Source: Bacteroidota bacterium
Lineage (GTDB): Bacteria; Bacteroidota; Bacteroidia; Chitinophagales; Saprospiraceae
Direction of reading: 5' to 3'
Length of the DNA stretch: 13,435 bases
NCBI GenBank assembly: GCA_039795795.1
Contig: JBDKKX010000088.1
Location: 1-13,435 of the forward strand
Below, one piece after another: positions 2,309-13,435 of this stretch (position 1 is its first letter; each line of letters starts with the position of its first letter). A program made the translations under genes and the position numbers. A model generated the notes under the pieces. That model searched no databases. It was not told the origin of the DNA and saw only the letters and a list, made by a program, of their open reading frames with translations.

Positions 2309-5300
2309 TTACGGTTCTTCAACTGCTGACGGATTATAATTTTTATTCAACTTCATTTTCAATCGCTCGCTCATAAGCAACATCGCTGGCACTAAAATAA
2401 GCGTTAAAAACGTAGCAAAGGATAATCCATAAATCATCGTCCAAGATAAGGGTCCCCAAAAGGCGACACTATCTCCGCCAAAAAAGATATGTGGGTCTAA
2501 ATCGTTGAACAAGGTTACAAAATCCATATTCAAACCCACCGCTAAAGGGATTAATCCGAGGATGGTTGCTGAAGCAGTTAGTAAAACGGGAGTCATTCGC
2601 GTTCGCCCAGCTTCGATGATGGCTGCTTTCAATTCCATCCCTTGTTTTAACAGAATCTCGGTAAATTCTACCATTAAAATCCCATTCCGAACCACAATCC
2701 CCGCTAAAGCGATGATACCAATGCCCGTCATAATGATGGAAATATCCATGCGGAAAAACACAAATCCAAGCAAAACGCCGATGATACTGAAAATAATTTC
2801 ACTCAAAATAATGACCATTTTGCTGATAGAATTGAATTGTATCACCAAAATAAGGATAATTAAACCAATGGAAGTCAATAATGCGCCGCCCAAAAAGCTG
2901 GTAGATTCTTTTTGGTCATCCTGCTCGCCGCCAAAACGCACTTCTACGCCATCGGGTTTATTATATGACTTAATCGCTTCTTGCACATCCGTAACAACCT
3001 TGTTAGGATTGAAACCCGTCAATACATTCGACGATAATATAACAATGCGTTTTTGATTTTTGCGCTTGATACCACCATAAGTATTGCCGTAATGCACATC
3101 CGCAATCGCGCTCATTGGCACATTTCGCAAGACTCCACCCATATTCATATCGCGGAAAATGATTTTTTGATTCATCAACGCGTTGATATTGCCGCGTTGT
3201 TCGGCTTTGAACCGCAACATGATAGGATATTCGTCATTCACATCTTTGAATTTTGAGATTTCTTTCCCAAAAACCGCATTTCGCAAACCAGAACCAATTT
3301 GCGCCGTCGAAATGCCTTCTCGATTGGCGCGTTCCCGGTCAATATCCACAATTAATTCGGGTTTATTCAAAACTAAATCTGATTTTAACTCTTCCACACC
3401 AGGAATTTGAAGCGCGTCTAAGTGCCGTTTCAAACCTGTAACCGTTTTCGACAAGATGCTAAAATCATCGCCCGTTATCTCTACGCTAATGGCTTTACCC
3501 GTCGGTGGTCCGCCTTGTTCTTGCTCCACCGCGATTTCTGCACCCGGAATGCCTTTGACAGCTTGTCGGAATTGATTCAAAAACGGCAAAGTCGATTTGC
3601 CATGTCGCTCCTCAAACGCTACAAAGGCAACCGTTACTTTTGCTTTATGCGGGCTGGCACTCAAATCGAAAGAGCGCGGGTCATTCGCGCCTACCGCGAC
3701 ATTCGTAATCACAGATTCCACCAATGGATTTTTCTCTCCAATCACTTTGAAAATCCGACGTTCCACTTCTTTGGCGACTGAATCGGTATAAACTTGGCTT
3801 GTTCCCACAGGCAAACTGATGTAGGTGTATGCAAAATTGGGGTCTGCGGATGGAAAAAAGACAATATTGGGCGGAAATTTCGCTACTAAAAAGAAACTAA
3901 AAAACAATAACAATACTGTTGCAACTAATAAACCCGCAGGTCGATAACCTTTTAAAAAGAAAGTCATTAAGTTGGCATAAGCGTTTTGAACCGCAGGCCA
4001 TATTTTCTCTTGAAAAGTTAAAATCATCCCCGTCAAAACGAACTTATTCAGTAAATATAAGAAATAAATGAAAACTATAAAATTGCCAAAACCATGATTT
4101 TTAGTTACATAGCTCAAAATCGCTATTCCAGCAAAAACAAGGCTTGTTATCAACAATCCGCGTGTAAATTTGGACTTTTTGACCCCAGTATGATGCGGTT
4201 TCATAAACGAAACGGCAAAAACAGGGTTAATAATGTACGCAACTAACAACGAGGCAAATAAGGTTATAATCATCGTTATCGGCAGGTAAAACATGAACTT
4301 ACCCACCAAACCTTGCCAAAAAGCCAACGGAAAAAATGGAGCTAAAGTCGTCAAAGTACCGCTTAAAACGGGCAAAAAGACTTCTCCTGCGGCTAATTTA
4401 GCTGCTTTTTTAATCGGCACTTTGCCATTATCGAAGATCCGATGCGTGTTCTCAATCACCACAATTGCATCATCCACCACGATTCCCAATGCCAATAAAA
4501 AGGCAAACATAACCATCATATTTAGCGAAAAATTCGCTCTGCCAAAACCATAAGTAAAAATAGCAGGTTCTACCAAAAACGCGACACACATCGAAATCGG
4601 CACAGACAAAGCTACAAAAATCGCATTCGTTACCCCCATGAAAAACATTAAAATCAACGTTACCAAGAGGAAACCAATGATAATCGTGTTTGTCAAATCG
4701 TGCAAAGTGGTTTTAGTTCGCGTGCTTTGGTCGCCCGTAATTGTGATTTTTAACCCTTTTGGAAAGGTCGTTTGCTTCATTTCGGTGCAAATTGCTCGAA
4801 TATCATCGCTTGCTTTGATAAGATTCTCGCCACTGCGCTTGATAACGTTGAGCGTAATCACATTTTTGCTGTCCAAATGCGCAAAACTTTCCCGTTCTTT
4901 ATGCGTATCGACCACATCCGCAATGTCGCCCACATGCACCACAGCCCCTGTACCGCCGCGAACTACAATATCGCTAATCATTCGCGGGTCTTTGTAAGTG
5001 CCTTTGACCGAAATTTGCCGTTTGACATCGCCCATATCAATCGCACCACTGGAAATCGTCATATTTTCGAGGCTAACCGCATTTTCAATGTCGCGCATCG
5101 TAATATTGTTCGCCTCCATTTTATACATATCCACATTAATTTGAATTTCACGCTCCAATGCGCCAATCAAATCCACGCGGGTAATTTCTTTCATGCCTTC
5201 GATACGGTCTTTCAACCCATCTGCATACCGTTTCAACTTGTCCAAATCGAAGTCCCCCGATAGGTTGACATTCATAATCGGCGTTTGCGAAATATCAATT

Positions 5301-5713
5301 TCAACGACCGTTGGTTCTTTGGGCAAATCGTTTGGCAAGTTAGAACGCGCTTTGTCAATTGCATCTTTCACTTTTTGCTTCGCCACCGAGACATCTACAT
5401 TCGTGTTGAACTCCACCATCACAGATGAAAAATCTTGGATGGAATTAGAGGTGATTTTCTTTACACCCGAAATCGATTTACATTGTTTTTCAATGTGTTT
5501 GGAAACCAAACTCTCCATATTTTCAGGCGAAGTCCCCGGATAAATCGTATTGACCATCATTTGCGGGAAAATCACTTCGGGATATTGCTCTTTGGGCATA
5601 TTCACATACGCCGAACCGCCTGCCAATAAAATGAAAATCGTTAATAAATAAATACTGGTACGATTATCAATTGACCAACTCGCAGGACCAAATTCTTTTA
5701 TTTTATCAAGCAT
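2309..5713 (-). CDS. Efflux RND transporter permease subunit (AcrB/HAE1-like), 1134 aa.
   Basis: Large periplasmic loops and 12+ hydrophobic segments. TM4 proton-relay motif GIVVDDAIVVIEN. Last gene of the tetR-tolC-MFP-RND cluster. Confidence 0.93.
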   Translation of the reverse strand: MLDKIKEFGPASWSIDNRTSIYLLTIFILLAGGSAYVNMPKEQYPEVIFPQMMVNTIYPGTSPENMESLVSKHIEKQCKSISGVKKITSNSIQDFSSVMVEFNTNVDVSVAKQKVKDAIDKARSNLPNDLPKEPTVVEIDISQTPIMNVNLSGDFDLDKLKRYADGLKDRIEGMKEITRVDLIGALEREIQINVDMYKMEANNITMRDIENAVSLENMTISSGAIDMGDVKRQISVKGTYKDPRMISDIVVRGGTGAVVHVGDIADVVDTHKERESFAHLDSKNVITLNVIKRSGENLIKASDDIRAICTEMKQTTFPKGLKITITGDQSTRTKTTLHDLTNTIIIGFLLVTLILMFFMGVTNAIFVALSVPISMCVAFLVEPAIFTYGFGRANFSLNMMVMFAFLLALGIVVDDAIVVIENTHRIFDNGKVPIKKAAKLAAGEVFLPVLSGTLTTLAPFFPLAFWQGLVGKFMFYLPITMIITLFASLLVAYIINPVFAVSFMKPHHTGVKKSKFTRGLLITSLVFAGIAILSYVTKNHGFGNFIVFIYFLYLLNKFVLTGMILTFQEKIWPAVQNAYANLMTFFLKGYRPAGLLVATVLLLFFSFFLVAKFPPNIVFFPSADPNFAYTYISLPVGTSQVYTDSVAKEVERRIFKVIGEKNPLVESVITNVAVGANDPRSFDLSASPHKAKVTVAFVAFEERHGKSTLPFLNQFRQAVKGIPGAEIAVEQEQGGPPTGKAISVEITGDDFSILSKTVTGLKRHLDALQIPGVEELKSDLVLNKPELIVDIDRERANREGISTAQIGSGLRNAVFGKEISKFKDVNDEYPIMLRFKAEQRGNINALMNQKIIFRDMNMGGVLRNVPMSAIADVHYGNTYGGIKRKNQKRIVILSSNVLTGFNPNKVVTDVQEAIKSYNKPDGVEVRFGGEQDDQKESTSFLGGALLTSIGLIILILVIQFNSISKMVIILSEIIFSIIGVLLGFVFFRMDISIIMTGIGIIALAGIVVRNGILMVEFTEILLKQGMELKAAIIEAGRTRMTPVLLTASATILGLIPLAVGLNMDFVTLFNDLDPHIFFGGDSVAFWGPLSWTMIYGLSFATFLTLILVPAMLLMSERLKMKLNKNYNPSAVEEP

Positions 5714-5755
5714 AAACTTTTTTTTATTATTTTTAATTTAAGTTTGTGGTGCGCT

Positions 5756-6051
5756 GGAATTAGGATTAAATGGGATTTTTGGGGGATTAAATGGGATTGA
5801 TTTTTAGGATTTGTAAGATTATAACCCTAAAAGTTTTATAAATTTTAAAAATCAATAGGATTTATAAGGTTATAACCCTAAAAATTTTATAAATTCTAAA
5901 AATCAATAGGATTTATAAGGTTATAACCCTAAAAATTTTATAAATTTTAAAAATCAATAGGATTTATAAGGCTATAACCCTAAAAATCTTATAAATCCTA
6001 AAAAAATCAATCCTATTTAATCCCAAAAAAATCCCATTTAATCCTAATTCC
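5756..6051. repeat. Composite intergenic repeat element: ~44-bp imperfect inverted-repeat arms (5756-5799 and 6008-6051) flanking a 51-bp tandem repeat array.
   Basis: The left arm ggaattaggattaaatgggatttttgggggattaaatgggattg matches the reverse complement of the right arm at 41 of 44 positions. Each arm holds five GGATT (or AATCC) motifs spaced 10-15 bp. Confidence 0.85.
5805..6008. repeat. Tandem repeat, 51-bp unit in about 3.6 copies.
   Basis: Unit taggatttataaggttataaccctaaaaattttataaattttaaaaatcaa starts at 5805, 5856, 5907 and 5958; the first and last copies are degenerate. Each unit contains the 10-bp palindrome GGTTATAACC and three TTATAA hexamers. Confidence 0.85.
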
Positions 6052-6062
6052 AACCGCCCGCG

Positions 6063-7184
6063 CTACAAATTAATCAAATCGCCATCATTCAAATCATTAT
6101 AACCCGTTACAATCAATTGGTCTCCCGTTTTAAGACCACTCAAAATCTCCGCTTGGTCTTTGTACAAACGACCAATTTTAATCATTGCCCGCTTTGCAAA
6201 CCACTTATCGCCCGTTTTTTCAGCGATTAAAACGAAATCCCCTGCATCCGCCTTTTGCAACAAATTGATAGGAACAATAAACGCATTAGAATTACTATAA
6301 TCCGTAACCTTAATGATACTCAACATATTCGGCAACAATCCCGCCATCGAACTCACAGGTACTTCCACTTTAAAAGTCCGATTCATCGGATTCACTGCAT
6401 TACCAATATATTTAATACTCCCCGAAACATCTTTATTCAAATCAGGAAAATGAATGGTTACATTATTGCCCGTGCGCACTTTTCCAGCGTAACTTTCAGG
6501 CACATCCGCCTTGACTTTTAGTTTAGAGAGATTCACAATCTTCGCTAAAGGTACTCCAGGAGCCGCCGTTTGACCAATTTTCATCGCCACTTCATCCACC
6601 ACACCCGAAATTGCCGCTTTCACTTTATACATCTCACGCGTTTCTTGAAGCGTACTCATTGTTTTTTCGAGTGCCTCTTTATTATTCTTAGCGGTTAAAA
6701 ACTGGATTTCAGAACCAATACTTTGTTTCCAAAGCGATTCTTGTTTTTGAAACACTTCATTTGCCAATTCCCACCGTTTCTGAACTTCTGCAACGTTATT
6801 TTGCAAAATGGCATCATCAATCTCAGCAACCACATCGCCCGCGCTCACTTTATCACCGACTTTAATATTCACCCGAATCAAAGAACCCGGTACTTTTGCA
6901 TTCACAAACACCTCATCATCTGCGATAATTGCCCCCGGAAGCTCAATAAAATGATTAAAGGTCTGCTGTTTTGCCTCTGCGAAAGTGACCGTTCTGGATT
7001 TTTGCACCACTTTCGTCGAATCAGAAGTCGAAAGTTCCTTTTCCAAAGCCGTAATTTCACCCGCAATTTGCGTTTGTTTTTTACGCAATTCCGCAAGTTG
7101 AGCCTTTTTATCTAACTTCTTTTCACCACCGCCACACGCCGTTAAGAAAAGCGTTAACATCAAAAAAATGGAAATATTTTTCAT
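6063..7184 (-). CDS. Efflux RND transporter periplasmic adaptor subunit (membrane fusion protein, HlyD family), lipoprotein.
   Basis: 373 aa. N-terminal signal with lipobox LTAC (MKNISIFLMLTLFLTACGG), a coiled-coil hairpin region and a C-terminal beta-barrel domain. Lies between the tolC and RND genes. Confidence 0.9.
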   Translation of the reverse strand: MKNISIFLMLTLFLTACGGGEKKLDKKAQLAELRKKQTQIAGEITALEKELSTSDSTKVVQKSRTVTFAEAKQQTFNHFIELPGAIIADDEVFVNAKVPGSLIRVNIKVGDKVSAGDVVAEIDDAILQNNVAEVQKRWELANEVFQKQESLWKQSIGSEIQFLTAKNNKEALEKTMSTLQETREMYKVKAAISGVVDEVAMKIGQTAAPGVPLAKIVNLSKLKVKADVPESYAGKVRTGNNVTIHFPDLNKDVSGSIKYIGNAVNPMNRTFKVEVPVSSMAGLLPNMLSIIKVTDYSNSNAFIVPINLLQKADAGDFVLIAEKTGDKWFAKRAMIKIGRLYKDQAEILSGLKTGDQLIVTGYNDLNDGDLINL

Positions 7185-7227: not shown

Positions 7228-8628
7228 TTACTTACCGAGTGCTTTTTGCAACGCTTTTTGAGCCACTAATAAATCATATTGCGCCTGCCGCAAATTTTGT
7301 TGCGACTGATACAATTGCTGCTCCGAAACCACCACTTCAAGACTACTGCCCAAACCTTCTTTATATTTTGTCTGCGTCGTTTTATAAATGCGTTCGGCTA
7401 AGGCAATATTTTTTTGTTGACTTGCAACCCTTTTTTGGGCGGTTTGAATTTGAATTCGAGCATTCAAATTTTGCAATTGAATGGCTCTTTCCAAATCATT
7501 TTTTTGCAATTTCAACTGCTCTAAAACCAATTGAGCCCGTTCAATTTTATACTTTTTTTCTCGATTATCCCAAATATTATAAGTTGCCTTAATGCCAATC
7601 ACCGATGAAGGTAAAAATTTCGTGCTACCCGCCGTGAAATAATTATTAGCCGTAATATTTTCTTGTAAATTTGCAAAGGCGGAAACCGTTGGCAAATACG
7701 CCGCTTTATTCACTTCTACATTCAATTCATTCATGGCGTAAGTCATTTCCAAAAATTTATACATCGCATGATTATTGAAATCGACTTGCTCCTCCAAATT
7801 CACGTTTGCCTGCAACAATGTATTTACATCATCCGCCACTTCCAATGGCTTATCCAAAGGATATTGAATTACCATCTTTAAACCATTGAGAATCAATTCT
7901 TTTTGCCTATCTAAATTCTCTCTTTCCACTTTCAAATTCGCCAAAGACAATTCTAATCTATCCACATCCAATTGTTCCGAAAAGCCCGCTTTCTGAATGG
8001 CGGAACTTTCTTTCAACAATTTTTCGATATTACTAATATTATTGTCTAAGGTTTTCATGCCTTCCGTCACGAGCAGCGCGGGCAAATAAACATCCATAAC
8101 TTGATTGCGCACCTCCGTTTTCTTGACAGCAACCTGTGCTTCTACAAACTTTCTATATGTTTTTGCCGCCTTCACCGCTACATTATAACTGCCACTATAC
8201 ACCAATTGACTCGCCGTCACGCCCGCAGTCAAACTATTGCGCTGCAAAAAACTCCCCTCAAAAAAACCACCCGAACCCGCAGGAAAACCAATCGGATTCC
8301 CAGTTCTGTCCTTGACCCCTTCTTTGACGAGCACCCCATAGACCGCAGGCGAAATAAAATCAGGAATCAACGTTTTAGGCGTAATCGCAAAAAATTGATA
8401 ACCGACTTCCGCATTAACTTGCGGCAAACCATTCGCCAGCCGTTCTTTGACCTGCAAATCCGCATCCGTAATATTGGATTCAGCGATTTTGATACTATTC
8501 GCATGAGCCAATGCGTACTGAACGGCAGCATCCAAAGTCATACGTTCCTGCGCCTTGACCTGCCCAGTCAAGACGACACACGATGCCATCAGTAAAAATT
8601 TTGAAAAATCATTTCGTCGCATACACAT
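7228..8628 (-). CDS. TolC-family outer membrane efflux protein. An alternative start at 8622 (MRRN...) is possible.
   Basis: 466 aa. Signal peptide ...LMASCVVLTGQVKA|QE. Two repeated coiled-coil/beta halves typical of outer membrane factors. Sits directly upstream of the adaptor gene. Confidence 0.9.
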   Translation of the reverse strand: MCMRRNDFSKFLLMASCVVLTGQVKAQERMTLDAAVQYALAHANSIKIAESNITDADLQVKERLANGLPQVNAEVGYQFFAITPKTLIPDFISPAVYGVLVKEGVKDRTGNPIGFPAGSGGFFEGSFLQRNSLTAGVTASQLVYSGSYNVAVKAAKTYRKFVEAQVAVKKTEVRNQVMDVYLPALLVTEGMKTLDNNISNIEKLLKESSAIQKAGFSEQLDVDRLELSLANLKVERENLDRQKELILNGLKMVIQYPLDKPLEVADDVNTLLQANVNLEEQVDFNNHAMYKFLEMTYAMNELNVEVNKAAYLPTVSAFANLQENITANNYFTAGSTKFLPSSVIGIKATYNIWDNREKKYKIERAQLVLEQLKLQKNDLERAIQLQNLNARIQIQTAQKRVASQQKNIALAERIYKTTQTKYKEGLGSSLEVVVSEQQLYQSQQNLRQAQYDLLVAQKALQKALGK

Positions 8629-8645
8629 CTTTTGGTTAATACTTT

Positions 8646-8686
8646 ATTGATAATCAATGAATTACAATAGGATAAAGATAATCAAT
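8646..8686. promoter_or_regulatory. Candidate operator between tetR and tolC: palindrome ATTGAT-a-ATCAAT plus a direct repeat GATAATCAAT x2.
   Basis: 13-bp palindrome at 8646-8658. Decamer GATAATCAAT at 8649-8658 and again at 8677-8686. No TAnnTTTG promoter motif was found here, so the operon may be co-transcribed from the tetR promoter. Confidence 0.25.
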
Positions 8687-8689
8687 TGC

Positions 8690-9295
8690 TTATTTATCCG
8701 TTATCATTTTTAATCGTTCTAAACCTTTTGGCGCAAGAACGCCGTGCAAATGATAGATGATAAATTGTTTATACAAAACCGTTTTGGAATAACGGCTTAA
8801 TGGAAATAAATGATCATCTAAAATACAAAGGCTTTTTGCAACATATAATTTTGCAATAATATCTGCATCTATATCCGCACGATACAAATCTTCTTGCATC
8901 CCGCGTTCAATATTTTTTTTGATAATGCCATAAATATGTTCATTGGAAGTTTTTTCCAAAATCAACCACGTTTCTCGATGATATTTTTGCAAATCATAGA
9001 TAAAAGTCGAGGTCAATTGCGCCAATTCCAGCGCGACATGTTGAGCAATACTCAAAATTTCATCTACAGCGTCGGTTGCCGAATTCAAAATGGTAGCCAT
9101 AATAATTTGTTCAGCCTCAAAATGTTCGACAACCATTTGCTCAATAATTTTGTTTTTGGTATCGAAATGTTGATAGAGCGTTTTTTTGGAGATGCCGAGT
9201 TCGCGGGCAATATCATCCATCGTAACGCTTTTGATGCCGTATCGTAAAAACAAAGGTTGACACCGTTTTAAAATATTTTTTTTGATATTTTCCAT
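8690..9295 (-). CDS. TetR/AcrR-family transcriptional regulator.
   Basis: 201 aa. N-terminal HTH ...YGIKSVTMDDIARELGISKKTLYQHF... First gene of the efflux cluster. Confidence 0.9.
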   Translation of the reverse strand: MENIKKNILKRCQPLFLRYGIKSVTMDDIARELGISKKTLYQHFDTKNKIIEQMVVEHFEAEQIIMATILNSATDAVDEILSIAQHVALELAQLTSTFIYDLQKYHRETWLILEKTSNEHIYGIIKKNIERGMQEDLYRADIDADIIAKLYVAKSLCILDDHLFPLSRYSKTVLYKQFIIYHLHGVLAPKGLERLKMITDK

Positions 9296-9387: not shown

Positions 9388-10263
9388 ATGAAACTAAAAC
9401 CAGCTCAACTTGTCGGTTTGCCTTTTGCGATTGCCGCGTTTGTCGGTTTTTATTTGGCTTACACCAAAAGTAGTGATTATGCCTTGTATGCTGCGTTGCC
9501 GCTGATTCTGCTGTCAGTTACATTTGTGATGAGTCCGCAGATTAATTGGTGGTGGTACAAGCGAAATCCGCCTGATACATCGGCAGGTATCACGCGTTTT
9601 TTGGAAAATGTGCCGTATTATCGCCTGTTGAACCCGGATTTGAAACCCAAATTTCGGCAACGAGTGGCTTTATATATGGAAGGAAATCAATTTATGCGCC
9701 CTGCACCGCCCCAAGAGGATAATCGGACGCGTTCCGATGTGCCCGAAGATTTAAAAGCGGCGGCAGCGGCATCTGCGGTTCAATTGACGTTTGGATTAAA
9801 AGATTTTATGTTGGATAAATTTGAAAATATTATCATCTATCCACAGGCATTTCCATCGCCACAATATCCAGATAGATTGCATTTATCAGAAGTTTATGAA
9901 GAAGATGGAGTCATTATTTTTTCAGCAGACGCGCTGATTCAAGGACTTACAAATCAAAATCTTTTTAATGTGGGTTTGTACGAATATGCCAAAGCGTATC
10001 AAATCCAATATTTGAAAGCGAAACCGATTCAATGGGAAGGGCAGATTTGGGAAAAATTAGCGGCAGTCGGCGGCATGAATGAAGCCGATTTTCAGCGATT
10101 TTTAAATTTGCCAGAGATTGATATTTTTGGGGTTGCAGTGCATCATTTTTTCAAATTACCTGTGGCATTTCAGAAGGTTTTACCTGAATTATTCCAATTA
10201 TTTGAAAAAATGTTTAAACAAAATCCTTTGAATGTAACCATGCCGATAGATTCAAACACATAG
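9388..10263 (+). CDS. Hypothetical membrane protein with two N-terminal TM helices and a cytoplasmic domain. Possibly distantly related to MtfA/peptidase M90, with a degenerate metal-binding motif.
   Basis: 291 aa with good coding periodicity. Hydrophobic helices at residues ~8-25 and ~32-50. The motif IIIYPQAFPSP resembles the MtfA LIYPAPF motif, but HExxH is replaced by YEYAK. The stop codon TAG at 10261-10263 lies inside the downstream palindromic repeat. Confidence 0.75.
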   Translation: MKLKPAQLVGLPFAIAAFVGFYLAYTKSSDYALYAALPLILLSVTFVMSPQINWWWYKRNPPDTSAGITRFLENVPYYRLLNPDLKPKFRQRVALYMEGNQFMRPAPPQEDNRTRSDVPEDLKAAAAASAVQLTFGLKDFMLDKFENIIIYPQAFPSPQYPDRLHLSEVYEEDGVIIFSADALIQGLTNQNLFNVGLYEYAKAYQIQYLKAKPIQWEGQIWEKLAAVGGMNEADFQRFLNLPEIDIFGVAVHHFFKLPVAFQKVLPELFQLFEKMFKQNPLNVTMPIDSNT

Positions 10264-10383
10264 GAGCATAGGAAACATAGATTTTGAACACATAGGAGCA
10301 TAGGAAACATAGGTTTGTACAAATCTATGTTTCCTATGCTCCTATGTGTTCAAAACCTATGTTGCCTATGTCCCTATGTGTTT
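10255..10383. repeat. Nested palindromic repeat (CATAGG element): four copies of a ~26-bp unit arranged as two direct followed by two inverted.
   Basis: Perfect 29-bp stem, 10284-10312 (ttgaacacataggagcataggaaacatag) paired with 10325-10353. The 12-nt loop gtttgtacaaat is itself palindromic. Outer imperfect copies at 10255-10281 and 10354-10381. Confidence 0.85.
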
Positions 10384-10423: not shown

Positions 10424-10433
10424 GCATTTGTAG

Positions 10434-10505
10434 TAGCCCGTACGGGAGTCGAACCCGTCTTTTAAGAATGAAAATCTCATGTCCTAACCGATAGACGAAC
10501 GGGCC
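10434..10505 (-). tRNA. tRNA-Glu (anticodon UUC), 72 nt, CCA not encoded.
   Basis: Manual cloverleaf fold. Acceptor stem GGCCCGT/ACGGGCT with a G1-U wobble. D-arm GTCT-ATCGGTTA-GGAC. Anticodon stem TGAGA/TCTTA with loop TTTTCAT (U33, anticodon TTC, A37). T-arm ACGGG-TTCGACT-CCCGT. Discriminator A. Confidence 0.9.
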
Positions 10506-10606
10506 AGAGATTCTTTTTTCTTACACTTGTGTCGCTTGACAACTGCTTTGTTTCAAATGCGATGCAAAATTACAACTGTTTTTGGAATCTGCAAATTTTT
10601 TTTCAC

Positions 10607-10679
10607 TTTTTTTTGAAAAAAAATGATTTTTTTTGAAATTATTTTTCTCAAAAAAAAGATTTCAAAAAAAATCATTTTT
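10607..10679. promoter_or_regulatory. A/T-tract palindrome upstream of the tRNA-Glu promoter region, possibly a curved-DNA/UP-like element.
   Basis: 20-bp perfect inverted repeat aaaaatgattttttttgaaa (10618-10637) and tttcaaaaaaaatcattttt (10660-10679). Direct repeats of ttttttttgaaa. A8/T8 tracts lie ~100-175 bp upstream of the tRNA 5' end. Confidence 0.35.
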
Positions 10680-10702
10680 AATATATTGAATATCAATTAT
10701 TT

Positions 10703-10870
10703 ATGAAAATCATGAGTTTAACGACCAAATGGTATAATTTAAAATGGTCGCAAAACAAACCCAAGAAATATACGGCACGAGCAACCATGAAGCGAGCCGC
10801 GAAATGGGCGCAAATTGAAAAATGGTTTTTAAAATTGAAAGGTTTGATTCGACGCGAAACCTTTTTCTAA
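10703..10870 (+). CDS. Small ORF of 55 aa, basic and Trp-rich (four KW motifs). Not in the supplied ORF track. Speculative.
   Basis: ATG at 10703 to TAA at 10868-10870. Translation: MKIMSLTTKWYNLKWSQNKPKKYTARATMKRAAKWAQIEKWFLKLKGLIRRETFF. Immediately followed by a terminator-like hairpin. Confidence 0.25.
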   Translation: MKIMSLTTKWYNLKWSQNKPKKYTARATMKRAAKWAQIEKWFLKLKGLIRRETFF

Positions 10871-12551: not shown

Positions 12552-12571
12552 AGAAAATGGAATAAAACACA

Positions 12572-12674
12572 TTTTTGGAACACATAGGAACATCGAAGAC
12601 ATAGATTTTCTAAATCATTGATAATCAGTTATTTAGAAAATCTATGTCTTCGATGTTCCTATGTGTTCCAAAAA
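12572..12674. repeat. Perfect 44-bp inverted repeat with a 15-nt loop, CATAGG-family palindromic element.
   Basis: Left arm 12572-12615 tttttggaacacataggaacatcgaagacatagattttctaaat is exactly the reverse complement of 12631-12674. Shares the gaacacatagga and acatagatttt cores with the element at 10255-10383. Lies between two convergent stop codons. Confidence 0.85.
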
Positions 12675-12684
12675 TGAAACATCC

Positions 12685-13435
12685 CTACTCAACGTCATGT
12701 TCCAACACATCGCTCAAAATGGTGCCTTTCAATAGGCTTGAAAATACATCCGCAACGCTTTTGCCGCCCAAAATAGAAAGTGGAGACATTGAAACCGCTA
12801 CTTTTTCCGCCAAAGCCCGATTGCTAAACGATTGAAGTGCTGCAATCAAATTCGGCGAAACGGCGGCAGCTTTACTAACTGTCGCATCCACTTCGGCTTT
12901 CAACTCCAATAACCGTTGTTGCAAGTGCAATTCTGCCAACGCGATTTCGACTTCTCCTTTCGATTTCACGATAGATAATTCGGTTGCATTGATTTTTTCC
13001 AAATGAGATTGGGCATTTAATTCGGCTTCCAAACTTTCTGAACGCGATTTGGCATCTGCCTCAATCCGTGCTAACGAATTTTGCAAAGTCAACTCTATTT
13101 CTTTTTTCGCCAGCGACAATGCTAAACTTTGCGTATCCGCCTTGCTTTGCATGACGCTTCGATTGATAGATTCCGTTTCAGTGGTCAATAACAAGCGTCG
13201 TTTTTCCGCACGGATGCCTAAATTTTGCGTAATCACATCTTGTTGCGCTTGAATCAACATTTTTTCAATATGAGCATCTCCTAATTTGATGTCAAAAATC
13301 TCTACGTCATAAATCCGCATATTATTCTCGGAAAACAACTTTCCAGGACGTTTATTTTGCTCATTTGGCAAACCCAAAACCGTATCTCGAATAATATTAA
13401 TCCCATTCGCGTAAAAATCCATAATATTATACCGC
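12685..13435 (-). CDS. Flotillin/SPFH-domain-like protein, C-terminal part (the gene continues beyond the window end).
   Basis: The ORF is open to the window edge. Long A/E/L/K-rich coiled-coil segment (…ELKAEVDATVSKAAA…, …EADAKSRSESLEAELNAQ…) after a band-7-like segment (IYDVEIFDIKLGD). Stop TAG at 12685-12687. Confidence 0.65.
   Translation of the reverse strand, partial: RYNIMDFYANGINIIRDTVLGLPNEQNKRPGKLFSENNMRIYDVEIFDIKLGDAHIEKMLIQAQQDVITQNLGIRAEKRRLLLTTETESINRSVMQSKADTQSLALSLAKKEIELTLQNSLARIEADAKSRSESLEAELNAQSHLEKINATELSIVKSKGEVEIALAELHLQQRLLELKAEVDATVSKAAAVSPNLIAALQSFSNRALAEKVAVSMSPLSILGGKSVADVFSSLLKGTILSDVLEHDVE

What the first reader, a model, noticed from the sequence alone, without database searches (positions are those of the whole stretch)
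5714..6062. Structured 296-bp palindromic and tandem composite element splits the adaptor and permease genes of an RND efflux operon
In tetR-tolC-MFP-RND clusters the adaptor and permease genes are normally adjacent or overlapping. Here they are separated by 349 bp, almost all of it one organised element.
- Two ~44-bp arms are near-perfect inverted repeats of each other (41/44).
- The arms enclose ~3.6 copies of a 51-bp tandem unit. Each unit contains the palindrome GGTTATAACC and three TTATAA hexamers.
- No target-site duplication is evident, so it is not a clean MITE, and it has no coding capacity.

It could be a REP/BOX/Correia-like dispersed element that splits the operon transcript, or an RNA-structure module controlling permease translation relative to the adaptor. 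It could also be a binding array for a regulator.
Basis: seen in the sequence. Interest (0 to 1): 0.65.

Follow-up and report, generated by a model that had tools for sequence, protein, structure and literature searches.

The report
BOX-like palindromic repeat inside efflux operon
The 298-bp structure between the adaptor and pump genes is real, and it is one of many long, near-perfect DNA palindromes that sit just behind stop codons in this uncultured Bacteroidota lineage and are swapped between strains; it is an undescribed relative of REP/BOX/MITE-type repeats, not a one-off regulatory device.

Summary
There are 51-nt inverted arms (48/51 complementary, 5755-5805 and 6002-6052) around 3.9 copies of a 51-bp unit. 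The whole spacer folds as one hairpin (-130.6 kcal/mol, z = -14). The element lies 10 nt after the MFP stop codon and 41 nt before the RND ATG. An independent metagenome contig carries the same element at the same site.

It is not unique in kind. In 14 other versions of this operon the MFP-RND spacer runs from 18 to 456 nt. Most versions hold a different long palindrome directly after the MFP stop, even between strains whose flanking genes are 96% identical.

Across about 245 kb of this clade, long palindromes occupy 28/66 tandem and 12/20 convergent gaps, but only 1/20 divergent gaps. Most start within 13 nt of a stop codon. Several form dispersed families, and one has 9-bp target duplications.

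The arms covary by exact Watson-Crick changes with no strand-specific G·U excess, which points to DNA-level symmetry.

The exact family here was seen only at this locus. Its terminus (GAATTAGGAT) recurs at both ends of another palindrome in a related strain.

Best reading: a BOX/REPIN-like foldback repeat that is tolerated within the operon. An effect on the mRNA is inferred, not shown.

The parts
6002..6052 (-). MFP-proximal arm, the 5' arm in the operon mRNA. It reads TGGAATTAGGATTAAATGGGATTTTTTTGGGATTAAATAGGATTGATTTTT and holds GGATT cores about 10 nt apart.
   Evidence: I4, 51 nt, 94% complementary to 5755-5805; GGATTAAATGGGATT module four times, only here in the window; the same arm is in L141.
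5755..5805 (-). RND-proximal arm, the 3' arm in the operon mRNA.
   Evidence: I4; pairs with 6002-6052 in the minimum-free-energy and centroid folds.
5805..6004 (.). Tandem array of 3.9 copies of a 51-bp unit. Each unit consists of two inverted half-units of about 25 bp (TAGGATTTATAAGGTT and a degenerate reverse complement) that resemble the arm module TAGGATTAAATGGGATT.
   Evidence: period 51, 93% match, score 344; D1; I1-I3 and I5-I8 show that the array is itself quasi-palindromic; single units fold at -11 to -14 kcal/mol on the + strand.
6053..6062 (-). A 10-nt G+C-rich linker (CGCGGGCGGT on the operon strand) between the MFP stop codon TAG (6063-6065) and the arm.
   Evidence: partly paired with GCGC after the 3' arm.
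5714..5754 (-). A 41-nt A-rich leader of the RND gene (GCGCACCACAAACTTAAATTAAAAATAATAAAAAAAAGTTT). It lies outside the hairpin. Its 3' part is conserved in relatives as AAAATATAAAAAACAAGTTT-ATG.
   Evidence: not part of the long helix; conserved box in L001, L002, L008, L014, L016, L017.
6063..7184 (-). Membrane-fusion (adaptor) protein gene, upstream of the element.
   Evidence: HlyD_D23, HlyD_3.
2309..5713 (-). RND permease gene, downstream of the element.
   Evidence: ACR_tran, E = 6.7e-181.
7228..9295 (-). Outer-membrane factor gene (7228-8628) and TetR-family regulator gene (8690-9295), which head the cluster.
10254..10383 (.). A second palindrome of the same class (CATAGG family). It has 65-nt arms and no loop, and each arm is a 32-bp unit repeated twice. 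It overlaps the stop codon of the M90-peptidase-like ORF.
   Evidence: family members at L014:5020-5085 and L016:18441-18507; covariation.
12570..12676 (.). A third palindrome of the same class, with 53-nt arms, lying between convergent genes. In the related strain L142 a different palindrome occupies this site, and both of its arms begin TTGAATTAGGATG.

Best explanation
The 298-bp element (5755-6052) is a non-coding, foldback-type palindromic repeat. It is built like a pneumococcal BOX element, with two complementary end modules around a tandem array of an internal module.

It is one member of a large population of long, nearly perfect DNA palindromes found in this Bacteroidota clade (relatives are labelled Saprospiraceae or Chitinophagales MAGs). 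These palindromes sit directly behind stop codons and turn over quickly between strains. The MFP-RND junction is a recurrent site for them.

Shown:
- The structure itself, and its position 10 nt after the MFP stop and 41 nt before the RND ATG.
- Its presence in a second sample.
- Different palindromes at the same junction in relatives.
- The bias of the class towards gene 3' ends.
- Dispersed families, one of them with target-site duplications.
- Arms that stay exactly complementary through paired changes with no strand bias.

Inferred:
- The element arrived by transposition-like insertion or replacement into the only permissive slot, between the stop codon and the RND translation-initiation region.
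- The array then grew by slippage or unequal recombination of a 51-bp unit derived from the arm module.
- The arms are kept symmetrical at the DNA level, either by intrastrand template switching or by passage through a single-stranded hairpin intermediate.

Also inferred: the operon is read through the element, because no promoter or terminator motif was found. The resulting hairpin of about 300 nt in the polycistronic mRNA then acts as a by-product barrier to 3' exonucleases, or as a double-strand-specific cleavage site. That would favour the upstream tolC-MFP part of the mRNA over the RND part, as the REP hairpin does between malE and malF.
For: Structure. Second sample.

Junction comparison:
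- There are 15 distinct versions of the junction.
- Ten have a stem of at least 18 bp starting -4 to +13 nt from the MFP stop. Two more (L002, L016) have shorter hairpins.
- The elements come from at least 6 unrelated sequence types.
- L001 and L016 are 96.3% identical in the flanking genes, and L002 and L008 are 95.6% identical, yet each pair carries different elements.

Class census over about 245 kb:
- Palindromes occur in 28/66 tandem gaps, 12/20 convergent gaps and 1/20 divergent gaps.
- Most start within 13 nt of the upstream stop codon.

Dispersed families:
- AATTGGAACGCGGATGAC... occurs at L008:7122, 2569 and 12328 and at L014:15494.
- GACACGAATTT... occurs at L017:3318 and 11353, L019:890 and L016:9984.
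- CACATAGG... occurs at window:10254 and 12570, L014:5020, 6778 and 21400, and L008:10822.
- CAGGTTGAAYGAAAG occurs at L001:5000-5148 and, nested, at L014:9699-9911. Its 9-bp duplications are TCATTCCGT and TAGAAGAA.

The arms-plus-internal-tandem layout recurs at L008:10822-11092.

Arm symmetry:
- In the CATAGG family, 22 of 48 pairs changed on both sides, and only three sequence-at-pair cells show a one-sided change.
- Among 79 arm mismatches, 24 are G·U and 25 are A·C on the sense strand.

Terminus sharing: the 10-mer GAATTAGGAT occurs in about 900 kb of fetched DNA only at the arm termini of this element, its L141 copy, and the L142 palindrome at an unlinked site.

Read-through: there is no TAnnTTTG motif on the operon strand of the spacer and no terminator-like site in the element.

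Analogies: BOX architecture and variable boxB number (PMC3049150); the malE-malF protective hairpin (PMC5927463); REPs abutting stop codons (PMC3733652).
Against: - No second full copy of this arm or of the 51-bp unit was found in about 245 kb of related loci or in viral contigs. My one metagenome scan used too loose a pattern and was uninformative. The dispersal evidence for this family therefore rests on a 10-13-nt shared terminus.
- There is no target-site duplication, and no transposase or RAYT gene was identified.
- Between the window and L141 the element differs at 3.8% of 132 nt, while third codon positions of the adjacent MFP gene differ at 12.8%. This suggests constraint, or a more recent spread, and fits a selected function better than junk.
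- My control for palindrome density was poor. The 120 metagenome loci had been selected for a repeat pattern, and they show a similar density.
- All RNA-level effects are untested.
Confidence: 0.6

Rival explanations
1. The element is an adaptive intercistronic RNA module. The hairpin is selected because it sets the adaptor-to-pump ratio, through protection from 3' exonucleases, double-strand-specific cleavage or partial attenuation. Its repeat-like appearance is secondary.
For: - A long hairpin directly after the MFP stop is present in 10-12 of 15 versions of the junction, even in lineages where MFP is only 52-62% identical.
- The element is more conserved than third codon positions between the window and L141: 3.8% against 12.8%.
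- The RND leader stays unpaired.
- There is precedent in malEFG and other operons (PMC5927463).
Against: - The sequence is replaced wholesale between strains whose flanks are 96% identical.
- Palindromes of the same kind follow many unrelated genes and also lie between convergent genes.
- Arm mismatches show no excess of G·U on the sense strand: 24 against 25. Family covariation is almost purely Watson-Crick.
- The three arm mismatches in this element are U·C, U·C and A·C on the operon strand.
- A 300-nt helix is far more than a stabiliser needs.
Confidence: 0.2
2. The element is a non-mobile palindrome that grew in place. An ancestral short hairpin with TTGGAAY...RTTCCAA ends expanded by replication slippage (duplication of the 21-nt arm module and the 51-bp unit) and by quasipalindrome template switching, with no transposition.
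For: - The window, L001, L008 and L014 share TTGGAAY/RTTCCAA ends at nearly the same distance from the stop codon, and their 3' flanks can be aligned.
- There is no target duplication.
- The arms and the units are built from one related module.
- Modules are gained or lost symmetrically in both arms when L016 and L017 are compared.
- Template-switch correction of quasipalindromes is an established mutational route (PMC7202029 and PMC5941160, listed).
Against: - The AATTGGAAC end is also found at unlinked loci (L014:15494; L008:2569 and 12328), so it is an element terminus rather than an ancestral flank.
- The GAATTAGGAT terminus recurs at another locus in L142.
- One family in the same genomes has clear 9-bp target duplications and a nested insertion into this very spacer.
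- Complete replacement between strains 96% identical in their flanks is hard to obtain by local slippage alone.
Confidence: 0.15
3. The element is a DNA binding array for a protein, such as the cluster's TetR regulator, a nucleoid protein or a transposase, which recognises the phased GGATT or TTATAA motifs.
For: - The GGATT cores in the arms are spaced about 10-11 nt apart.
- Other families show the same roughly 10-nt phasing of their own cores: ACGAAT, CGGAT and CATAG.
Against: - The array lies inside the operon, about 2.6 kb from the tetR-side promoter region.
- Orthologous operons carry unrelated motifs at the same place, so no operon-specific regulator site is conserved.
- The TTATAA spacing within a unit (about 8, 17 and 26 nt) is not helically phased.
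- No candidate protein was identified.
Confidence: 0.04
4. The element is an assembly artefact, a chimeric or collapsed repeat in a short-read MAG contig.
For: Arrays of 51-bp repeats are hard to assemble. L141 breaks inside the array.
Against: - An independent sample gives the same stop-codon flank, arm and first units, with its own point differences.
- The four units differ from one another by point changes, which anchors their order.
Confidence: 0.01

Closest known systems
BOX elements of Streptococcus pneumoniae (boxA-(boxB)n-boxC)
   Same: Both are composite intergenic repeats in which two end modules pair with each other, and a variable number of an internal module of about 45-51 bp sits between them in tandem. 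Both are transcribed into stem-loops and are often inserted within or next to operons (PMC3049150).
   Different: The phylum is different and no sequence relationship was tested or is expected. Here the end modules are near-exact reverse complements of each other (48/51) and are built from 10-nt-phased GGATT cores. The internal unit is itself a two-half palindrome related to the arms. Dispersal of this exact family is not shown.
REP/BIME and REPIN elements of Proteobacteria, including the malE-malF intercistronic REP
   Same: Both are extragenic palindromes placed just after stop codons, often between co-transcribed genes. They are abundant, have no target duplication, and their hairpin-preserving changes are correlated. 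The malE-malF hairpin stabilises the upstream mRNA segment (PMC3733652; PMC5927463).
   Different: REPs are 20-40 nt units with a GTAG or CGTC head. The arms here are 51 nt (24-102 nt across the class), have no such head, and have periodic interiors. No RAYT transposase was identified.
MITEs (for example Correia elements of Neisseria, Nezha of cyanobacteria)
   Same: Both are small, AT-rich and non-coding, with terminal inverted repeats and a strongly paired secondary structure. One family in these same genomes (CAGGTTGAAYGAAAG) has 9-bp target duplications and is nested in the orthologous spacer of L014. Correia transcripts are cut by RNase III (cited in PMC3049150).
   Different: This element has no target duplication, and no partner insertion sequence with the same ends is known. 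Its arms covary, whereas MITE arms diverge independently.
Foldback (FB) transposons of Drosophila
   Same: Both have long inverted arms that are themselves made of short tandem repeats of variable number, so that elements of one family differ in arm length.
   Different: FB elements are eukaryotic, kilobase-scale and sometimes carry coding inserts. This is an analogy of architecture only.

Membership tests
MITE | Terminal inverted repeats; small size (under about 600 bp); AT-rich; no coding capacity | tested here: met
   51-nt arms at 94% complementarity; 298 bp; G+C about 0.22; ORFs of 29 aa or less.
MITE | Target-site duplication flanking the element | tested here: not met
   The flanks CGCGGGCGG(T) and GCGCACCAC share no direct repeat.
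MITE | Multiple copies at unlinked sites in the host genome | tested here: inconclusive
   There is no second copy in the window or in about 245 kb of related loci. The terminus GAATTAGGAT is shared with both arms of a palindrome at another locus in L142.
MITE | A partner insertion sequence with the same terminal repeats | not tested
   No transposase gene was examined.
REP / REPIN | A 20-40-nt imperfect palindrome with a conserved GTAG or CGTC head | tested here: not met
   The arms are 51 nt and start TGGAATTAGG, with no GTAG or CGTC head. The feature is defined in PMC3733652.
REP / REPIN | Extragenic position close to gene 3' ends | tested here: met
   The element starts 10-11 nt after the MFP stop. 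For the class: 28/66 tandem, 12/20 convergent and 1/20 divergent gaps.
REP / REPIN | An associated RAYT (Y1 transposase) gene flanked by the repeats | not tested
   This needs the whole genome.
BOX element (Streptococcus) | Modular A-(B)n-C layout with mutually pairing A and C modules and tandem B modules | tested here: met
   The layout is described in PMC3049150.
BOX element (Streptococcus) | Sequence homology to boxA, boxB and boxC | not tested
   No BOX sequences or models were available in the tools, and Rfam gave no match. The host phylum is different, so I do not file the element as a member.
Intrinsic (Rho-independent) terminator | A G+C-rich stem-loop followed directly by a U-tract on the transcribed strand | tested here: not met
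   No terminator-like site lies in 5714-6062 on the minus strand. The 3' arm is followed by GCGCACCACAAAC.
Any curated RNA family (Rfam 15) | A covariance-model match at the gathering score | tested here: not met
   The only match in the window is tRNA-Glu. In the element there are only sub-threshold plant miRNA hairpin models, at 23 bits or less against gathering scores of 60-150.

The most novel reading that the evidence does not exclude
This Bacteroidota clade may carry an undescribed foldback-palindrome system. In this reading, elements with short conserved termini (TTGGAAY-type) and freely varying, roughly 10-nt-phased repeat interiors are targeted to the first nucleotides after stop codons. 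They replace one another at fixed sites like cassettes, and a dedicated DNA-level mechanism, probably a single-stranded hairpin intermediate handled by an unknown enzyme, keeps their arms exactly symmetrical. They would then double as the lineage's gene-end RNA structures. The 51-bp array in the efflux operon would be a hyper-expanded member.
Probability: 0.15. Interest if true: 0.75.

Novelty: new variant of a known kind. Interest (0 to 1): 0.42.

Why it matters
Small palindromic repeats are well studied in Proteobacteria, streptococci, neisseriae and cyanobacteria. My searches of the held literature found no description of them for Saprospiraceae-like Bacteroidota.

This locus gives a clean natural series. 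One operon junction, with flanking genes 85-96% identical, carries at least six unrelated palindromes, a nested insertion and an expanded array. Such a series can be used to ask three questions:
- How do such elements choose sites just behind stop codons?
- How are their arms kept symmetrical?
- Do they alter the subunit ratios of a tripartite efflux pump?

There is also a practical point for annotation. A long spacer with extreme predicted RNA structure inside an operon in these genomes should not be read as a dedicated riboregulator.

Tried and rejected
1. Metagenome-wide DNA scan with GGATTN5GGATTN{5,8}GGATTN5GGATT. The pattern was too loose.

2. Viral-contig scans. The arm 18-mer gave 4 hits, all in coding sequence; three are homologous copies of one phage region and the fourth (L011) is an unrelated sequence, so they are chance matches. 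The unit core gave 0 hits.

3. Exact-protein look-ups of the window's MFP and RND returned nothing on record. Cluster members did work.

4. Rfam at the gathering score and at E <= 1 returned nothing real.

5. The sigma-70 promoter and terminator scan found nothing in the element, although it is not designed for Bacteroidota. The Bacteroidetes -7 motif TAnnTTTG is absent on the operon strand.

6. I looked for an empty site upstream of GAPDH (window against L014). The upstream genes differ, so this is not a clean empty site.

7. I used the 120 metagenome loci as a background for palindrome density. I rejected this control because those loci had been selected for a repeat pattern.

8. I tested whether the window arm belongs to the CGGAT family by sequence. 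Only 7-24-nt local matches were found, so I do not claim membership.

9. blastn of the L142 palindrome against all loci found no further copies.

10. Integron attC sites (conserved ends, variable interior, placement after ORFs) were considered only from memory. I rejected them because the ends do not fit RYYYAAC/GTTRRRY and the flanking genes are syntenic housekeeping genes.

Full report
**What is at the coordinates**

The cluster runs on the minus strand: TetR regulator (8690-9295), outer-membrane factor (7228-8628), membrane-fusion adaptor MFP (6063-7184) and RND permease (2309-5713). The MFP-RND spacer is 349 nt.

Within the spacer, 5755-5805 and 6002-6052 are 51-nt inverted arms that are 94% complementary. 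Between them, 5805-6004 holds 3.9 copies of a 51-bp unit at 93% identity.

Each arm contains the module GGATTAAATGGGATT twice, so GGATT cores recur about every 10 nt. Each 51-bp unit consists of two inverted half-units of about 25 bp that resemble the arm module. As a result the array is quasi-palindromic about several centres (I1-I8).

As operon-sense RNA the spacer folds into one long hairpin of -130.6 kcal/mol (z = -14 against shuffles). The hairpin starts 10 nt after the MFP stop codon and ends 41 nt before the RND ATG. The A-rich leader lies outside the helix.

The element contains no ORF longer than 29 aa. It has no Rfam match and no terminator-like site. It has no Bacteroidetes-type -7 motif on the operon strand and no target-site duplication.

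**Source, and whether the element is real**

The window is a complete 13,435-bp contig of an uncultured Bacteroidota MAG. The nearest genomes are labelled Bacteroidota, Chitinophagales or Saprospiraceae MAGs.

A 1323-bp contig from another JGI sample (L141) encodes an MFP that is 95.2% identical at the nucleotide level. It carries the same linker, arm and first 1.5 units, with five small differences, and it ends inside the array. The element is therefore real and predates the split of these two strains, although its copy number is not secure.

The element differs at 3.8% of 132 nt, while third codon positions of the adjacent gene differ at 12.8%. This hints at constraint or at later spread.

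**The same junction in relatives**

I collected 14 other distinct versions of the operon. Spacer lengths are 18, 88, 94, 110, 128, 149, 160, 161, 183, 193, 265, 294, 334 and 456 nt.

- Ten of the 15 versions, counting the window, have a stem of at least 18 bp that begins -4 to +13 nt from the MFP stop.
- Two more (L002, L016) have shorter hairpins.
- The sequences fall into at least six unrelated types.
- L001 and L016 are 96.3% identical in the flanking coding DNA, and L002 and L008 are 95.6% identical, yet each pair carries different elements.
- L014 has the L001-type hairpin with another palindrome nested inside it. The nested element is flanked by a duplicated TCATTCCGT.
- L008 has two tandem copies of its element, together with a duplicated MFP 3' end.

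Just before the RND ATG, a conserved A-rich box (AAAATATAAAAAACAAGTTT) is retained in most close relatives.

**The wider class**

I ran a census of long inverted repeats (stem at least 18 bp, at least 82% paired, loop up to 320 nt) over the window and 16 related loci, about 245 kb in total. It found about 60.

- They occupy 28 of 66 gaps between same-strand genes, 12 of 20 convergent gaps and 1 of 20 divergent gaps.
- In same-strand gaps most begin -9 to +13 nt from the upstream stop codon, while the distance to the next start codon is much larger.
- Many arms are periodic. Examples are CGGATTG, ACGAATTT, CACATAGG, GTGAAAA, ATGAATG and ATTGTTAA; the arms of L005:5727-5951, which are built mainly of the ATTGTTAA motif, are 102 nt long.
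- Several types recur at unlinked loci.
- The CAGGTTGAAYGAAAG type has 9-bp target duplications at both of its sites, so it is a genuine MITE.
- L008:10822-11092 also combines arms with internal tandem arrays.

The window itself has two more members of the class, at 10254-10383 and 12570-12676.

**How the arms evolve**

Within a copy the arms are 91-100% complementary. Different copies of one family match only over parts of their arms, at 74-96% identity.

In an alignment of five CATAGG-family copies, 22 of 48 pairs show changes on both sides with pairing kept, and only three sequence-at-pair cells show a one-sided change. The ACGAAT family gains or loses a 10-nt module in both arms together.

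Among the 79 arm mismatches in palindromes between same-strand genes, 24 would be G·U and 25 would be A·C on the sense strand. Pairing in the mRNA therefore does not appear to be what is preserved. The symmetry is strand-neutral, which points to the DNA level.

**Is this particular family dispersed?**

I could not settle this. No second copy of the arm or of the unit occurs in the related loci or in viral contigs. My single metagenome scan was wasted on a pattern that was too general.

One positive sign exists. In L142, a related strain that is 93% identical over 2.2 kb, the site after the carboxyltransferase gene holds a different palindrome. In the window that site carries the CATAGG palindrome at 12570-12676. 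Both arms of the L142 palindrome begin TTGAATTAGGATG, close to the TGGAATTAGGATT terminus of the efflux element. The 10-mer GAATTAGGAT occurs nowhere else in about 900 kb of fetched DNA.

This mirrors the AATTGGAAC terminus, which is shared by elements with different interiors. It suggests short conserved ends with free interiors.

**Interpretation**

The best-supported reading (confidence 0.6) is a BOX/REPIN-like foldback repeat. It inserted, or replaced an earlier palindrome, in the only permissive slot of the junction. Its array then grew by slippage, and its arms are kept symmetrical at the DNA level. The operon tolerates it because the RND translation-initiation region stays free.

Read-through transcription, and an effect of the RNA hairpin on relative mRNA stability, are inferences by analogy with malE-malF (PMC5927463) and with BOX and Correia elements (PMC3049150).

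The rivals are:
- a selected intercistronic RNA module (0.2);
- purely in-situ growth without mobility (0.15);
- a protein-binding array (0.04);
- an assembly artefact (0.01).

**Comparison with known families, and novelty**

The architecture matches BOX elements, and the position and lack of duplication match REP/REPIN elements. However, the defining REP head (GTAG or CGTC) is absent, the MITE hallmark of a target duplication is absent, and homology to BOX was not testable. I therefore file the element as working like these families and not as a member of any of them.

I rate it a new variant of a known kind, of moderate interest. The single element is not remarkable. The behaviour of the class is worth follow-up: placement hard against stop codons, periodic arms, exact symmetry, and cassette-like replacement at fixed sites.

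Noticed in passing
window 10254-10383: A palindrome with 65-nt arms and no loop. Each arm is a 32-bp unit (AACACATAGGAGCATAGGAAACATAGATTTTG) repeated twice. It overlaps the stop codon of the M90-peptidase-like ORF (9388-10263) and lies 50 nt from tRNA-Glu(UUC) at 10433-10505. Family members occur at L014:5020-5085, L014:6778-6926, L014:21400-21499, L008:10822-11092 and L016:18441-18507.
   Followed up: partly
window 12570-12676; L142 2419-2535: The palindrome between the convergent carboxyltransferase gene and the ORF at 12685-13422 is replaced in the related strain L142 by an unrelated palindrome. Only the last 13 nt or so of the old right arm (ATGTGTTCCAAAA) remain next to the new one. This is an allelic replacement of one palindrome by another.
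   Followed up: partly
L008 7113-7425: The spacer element is present as two tandem copies, and the last 25 nt or so of the MFP gene, including its stop codon (GGCGATTTGATTGCTTTGTAA), is duplicated with it. This is either a real tandem duplication of about 130 bp or a MAG assembly problem.
   Followed up: no
L014 9699-9911 and L001 5000-5148: A palindromic element with ends CAGGTTGAAYGAAAG, flanked by 9-bp direct repeats (TCATTCCGT and TAGAAGAA+G/T). It occurs once nested inside the MFP-RND hairpin and once straddling the RND stop codon. It is a classical MITE in the same genomes.
   Followed up: partly
L003 7110-7567: In this Saprospiraceae MAG the 456-nt MFP-RND spacer contains an ATG-started open frame that appears to encode a small hydrophobic protein (MKKSLLTVLIANTVMAF...). 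This could be an extra small membrane component of the pump, or a spurious ORF.
   Followed up: no
L018 6660-6787: Here the conserved A-rich box follows the MFP stop almost directly, and about 90 nt of AT-rich sequence (with ATGATTCA/TCATCATT repeats) lies between the box and the RND ATG. The insertion is on the other side of the box compared with all the other strains.
   Followed up: no
L005 5727-5951; L006 3415-3529 and 4686-4822: More distant Saprospiraceae operons carry palindromes built of very short repeats in the TolC-MFP spacer as well. One has 102-nt arms of ATTGTTAA/ATTGTTGT units, and the others have GTGAAAA units. Every intercistronic gap of this operon can therefore host such elements.
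   Followed up: partly
window about 10551-10835 compared with L142 4-688: L142 and L014 have a TspO/MBR gene between the carboxyltransferase and M90-peptidase genes. The window aligns to L142 only over 4-288 and from 689 onward, so about 400 nt are missing and only the 3' end of TspO seems to remain. This is a likely deletion remnant next to the A/T-run palindrome at 10619-10679.
   Followed up: partly
window 5856-6008, plus strand: Single 51-bp units fold clearly better as plus-strand (antisense to the operon) RNA: -11.3 and -13.7 kcal/mol (z = -3 and -5.7), against -5.7 kcal/mol (z about 0) for the two middle units tested on the operon strand. The half-units differ by G-to-A transitions that give G·U pairs on the plus strand only. 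These are probably a few transitions copied along by unit duplication, but an antisense transcript was not excluded.
   Followed up: no
L062 36-250 and L115 7378-7470 (unrelated metagenome contigs): Palindromes with arms made of phased GGATTAAT or CGGATT modules also turn up in unrelated metagenome contigs. GGATT-periodic foldback arms are therefore not confined to the window's clade.
   Followed up: no
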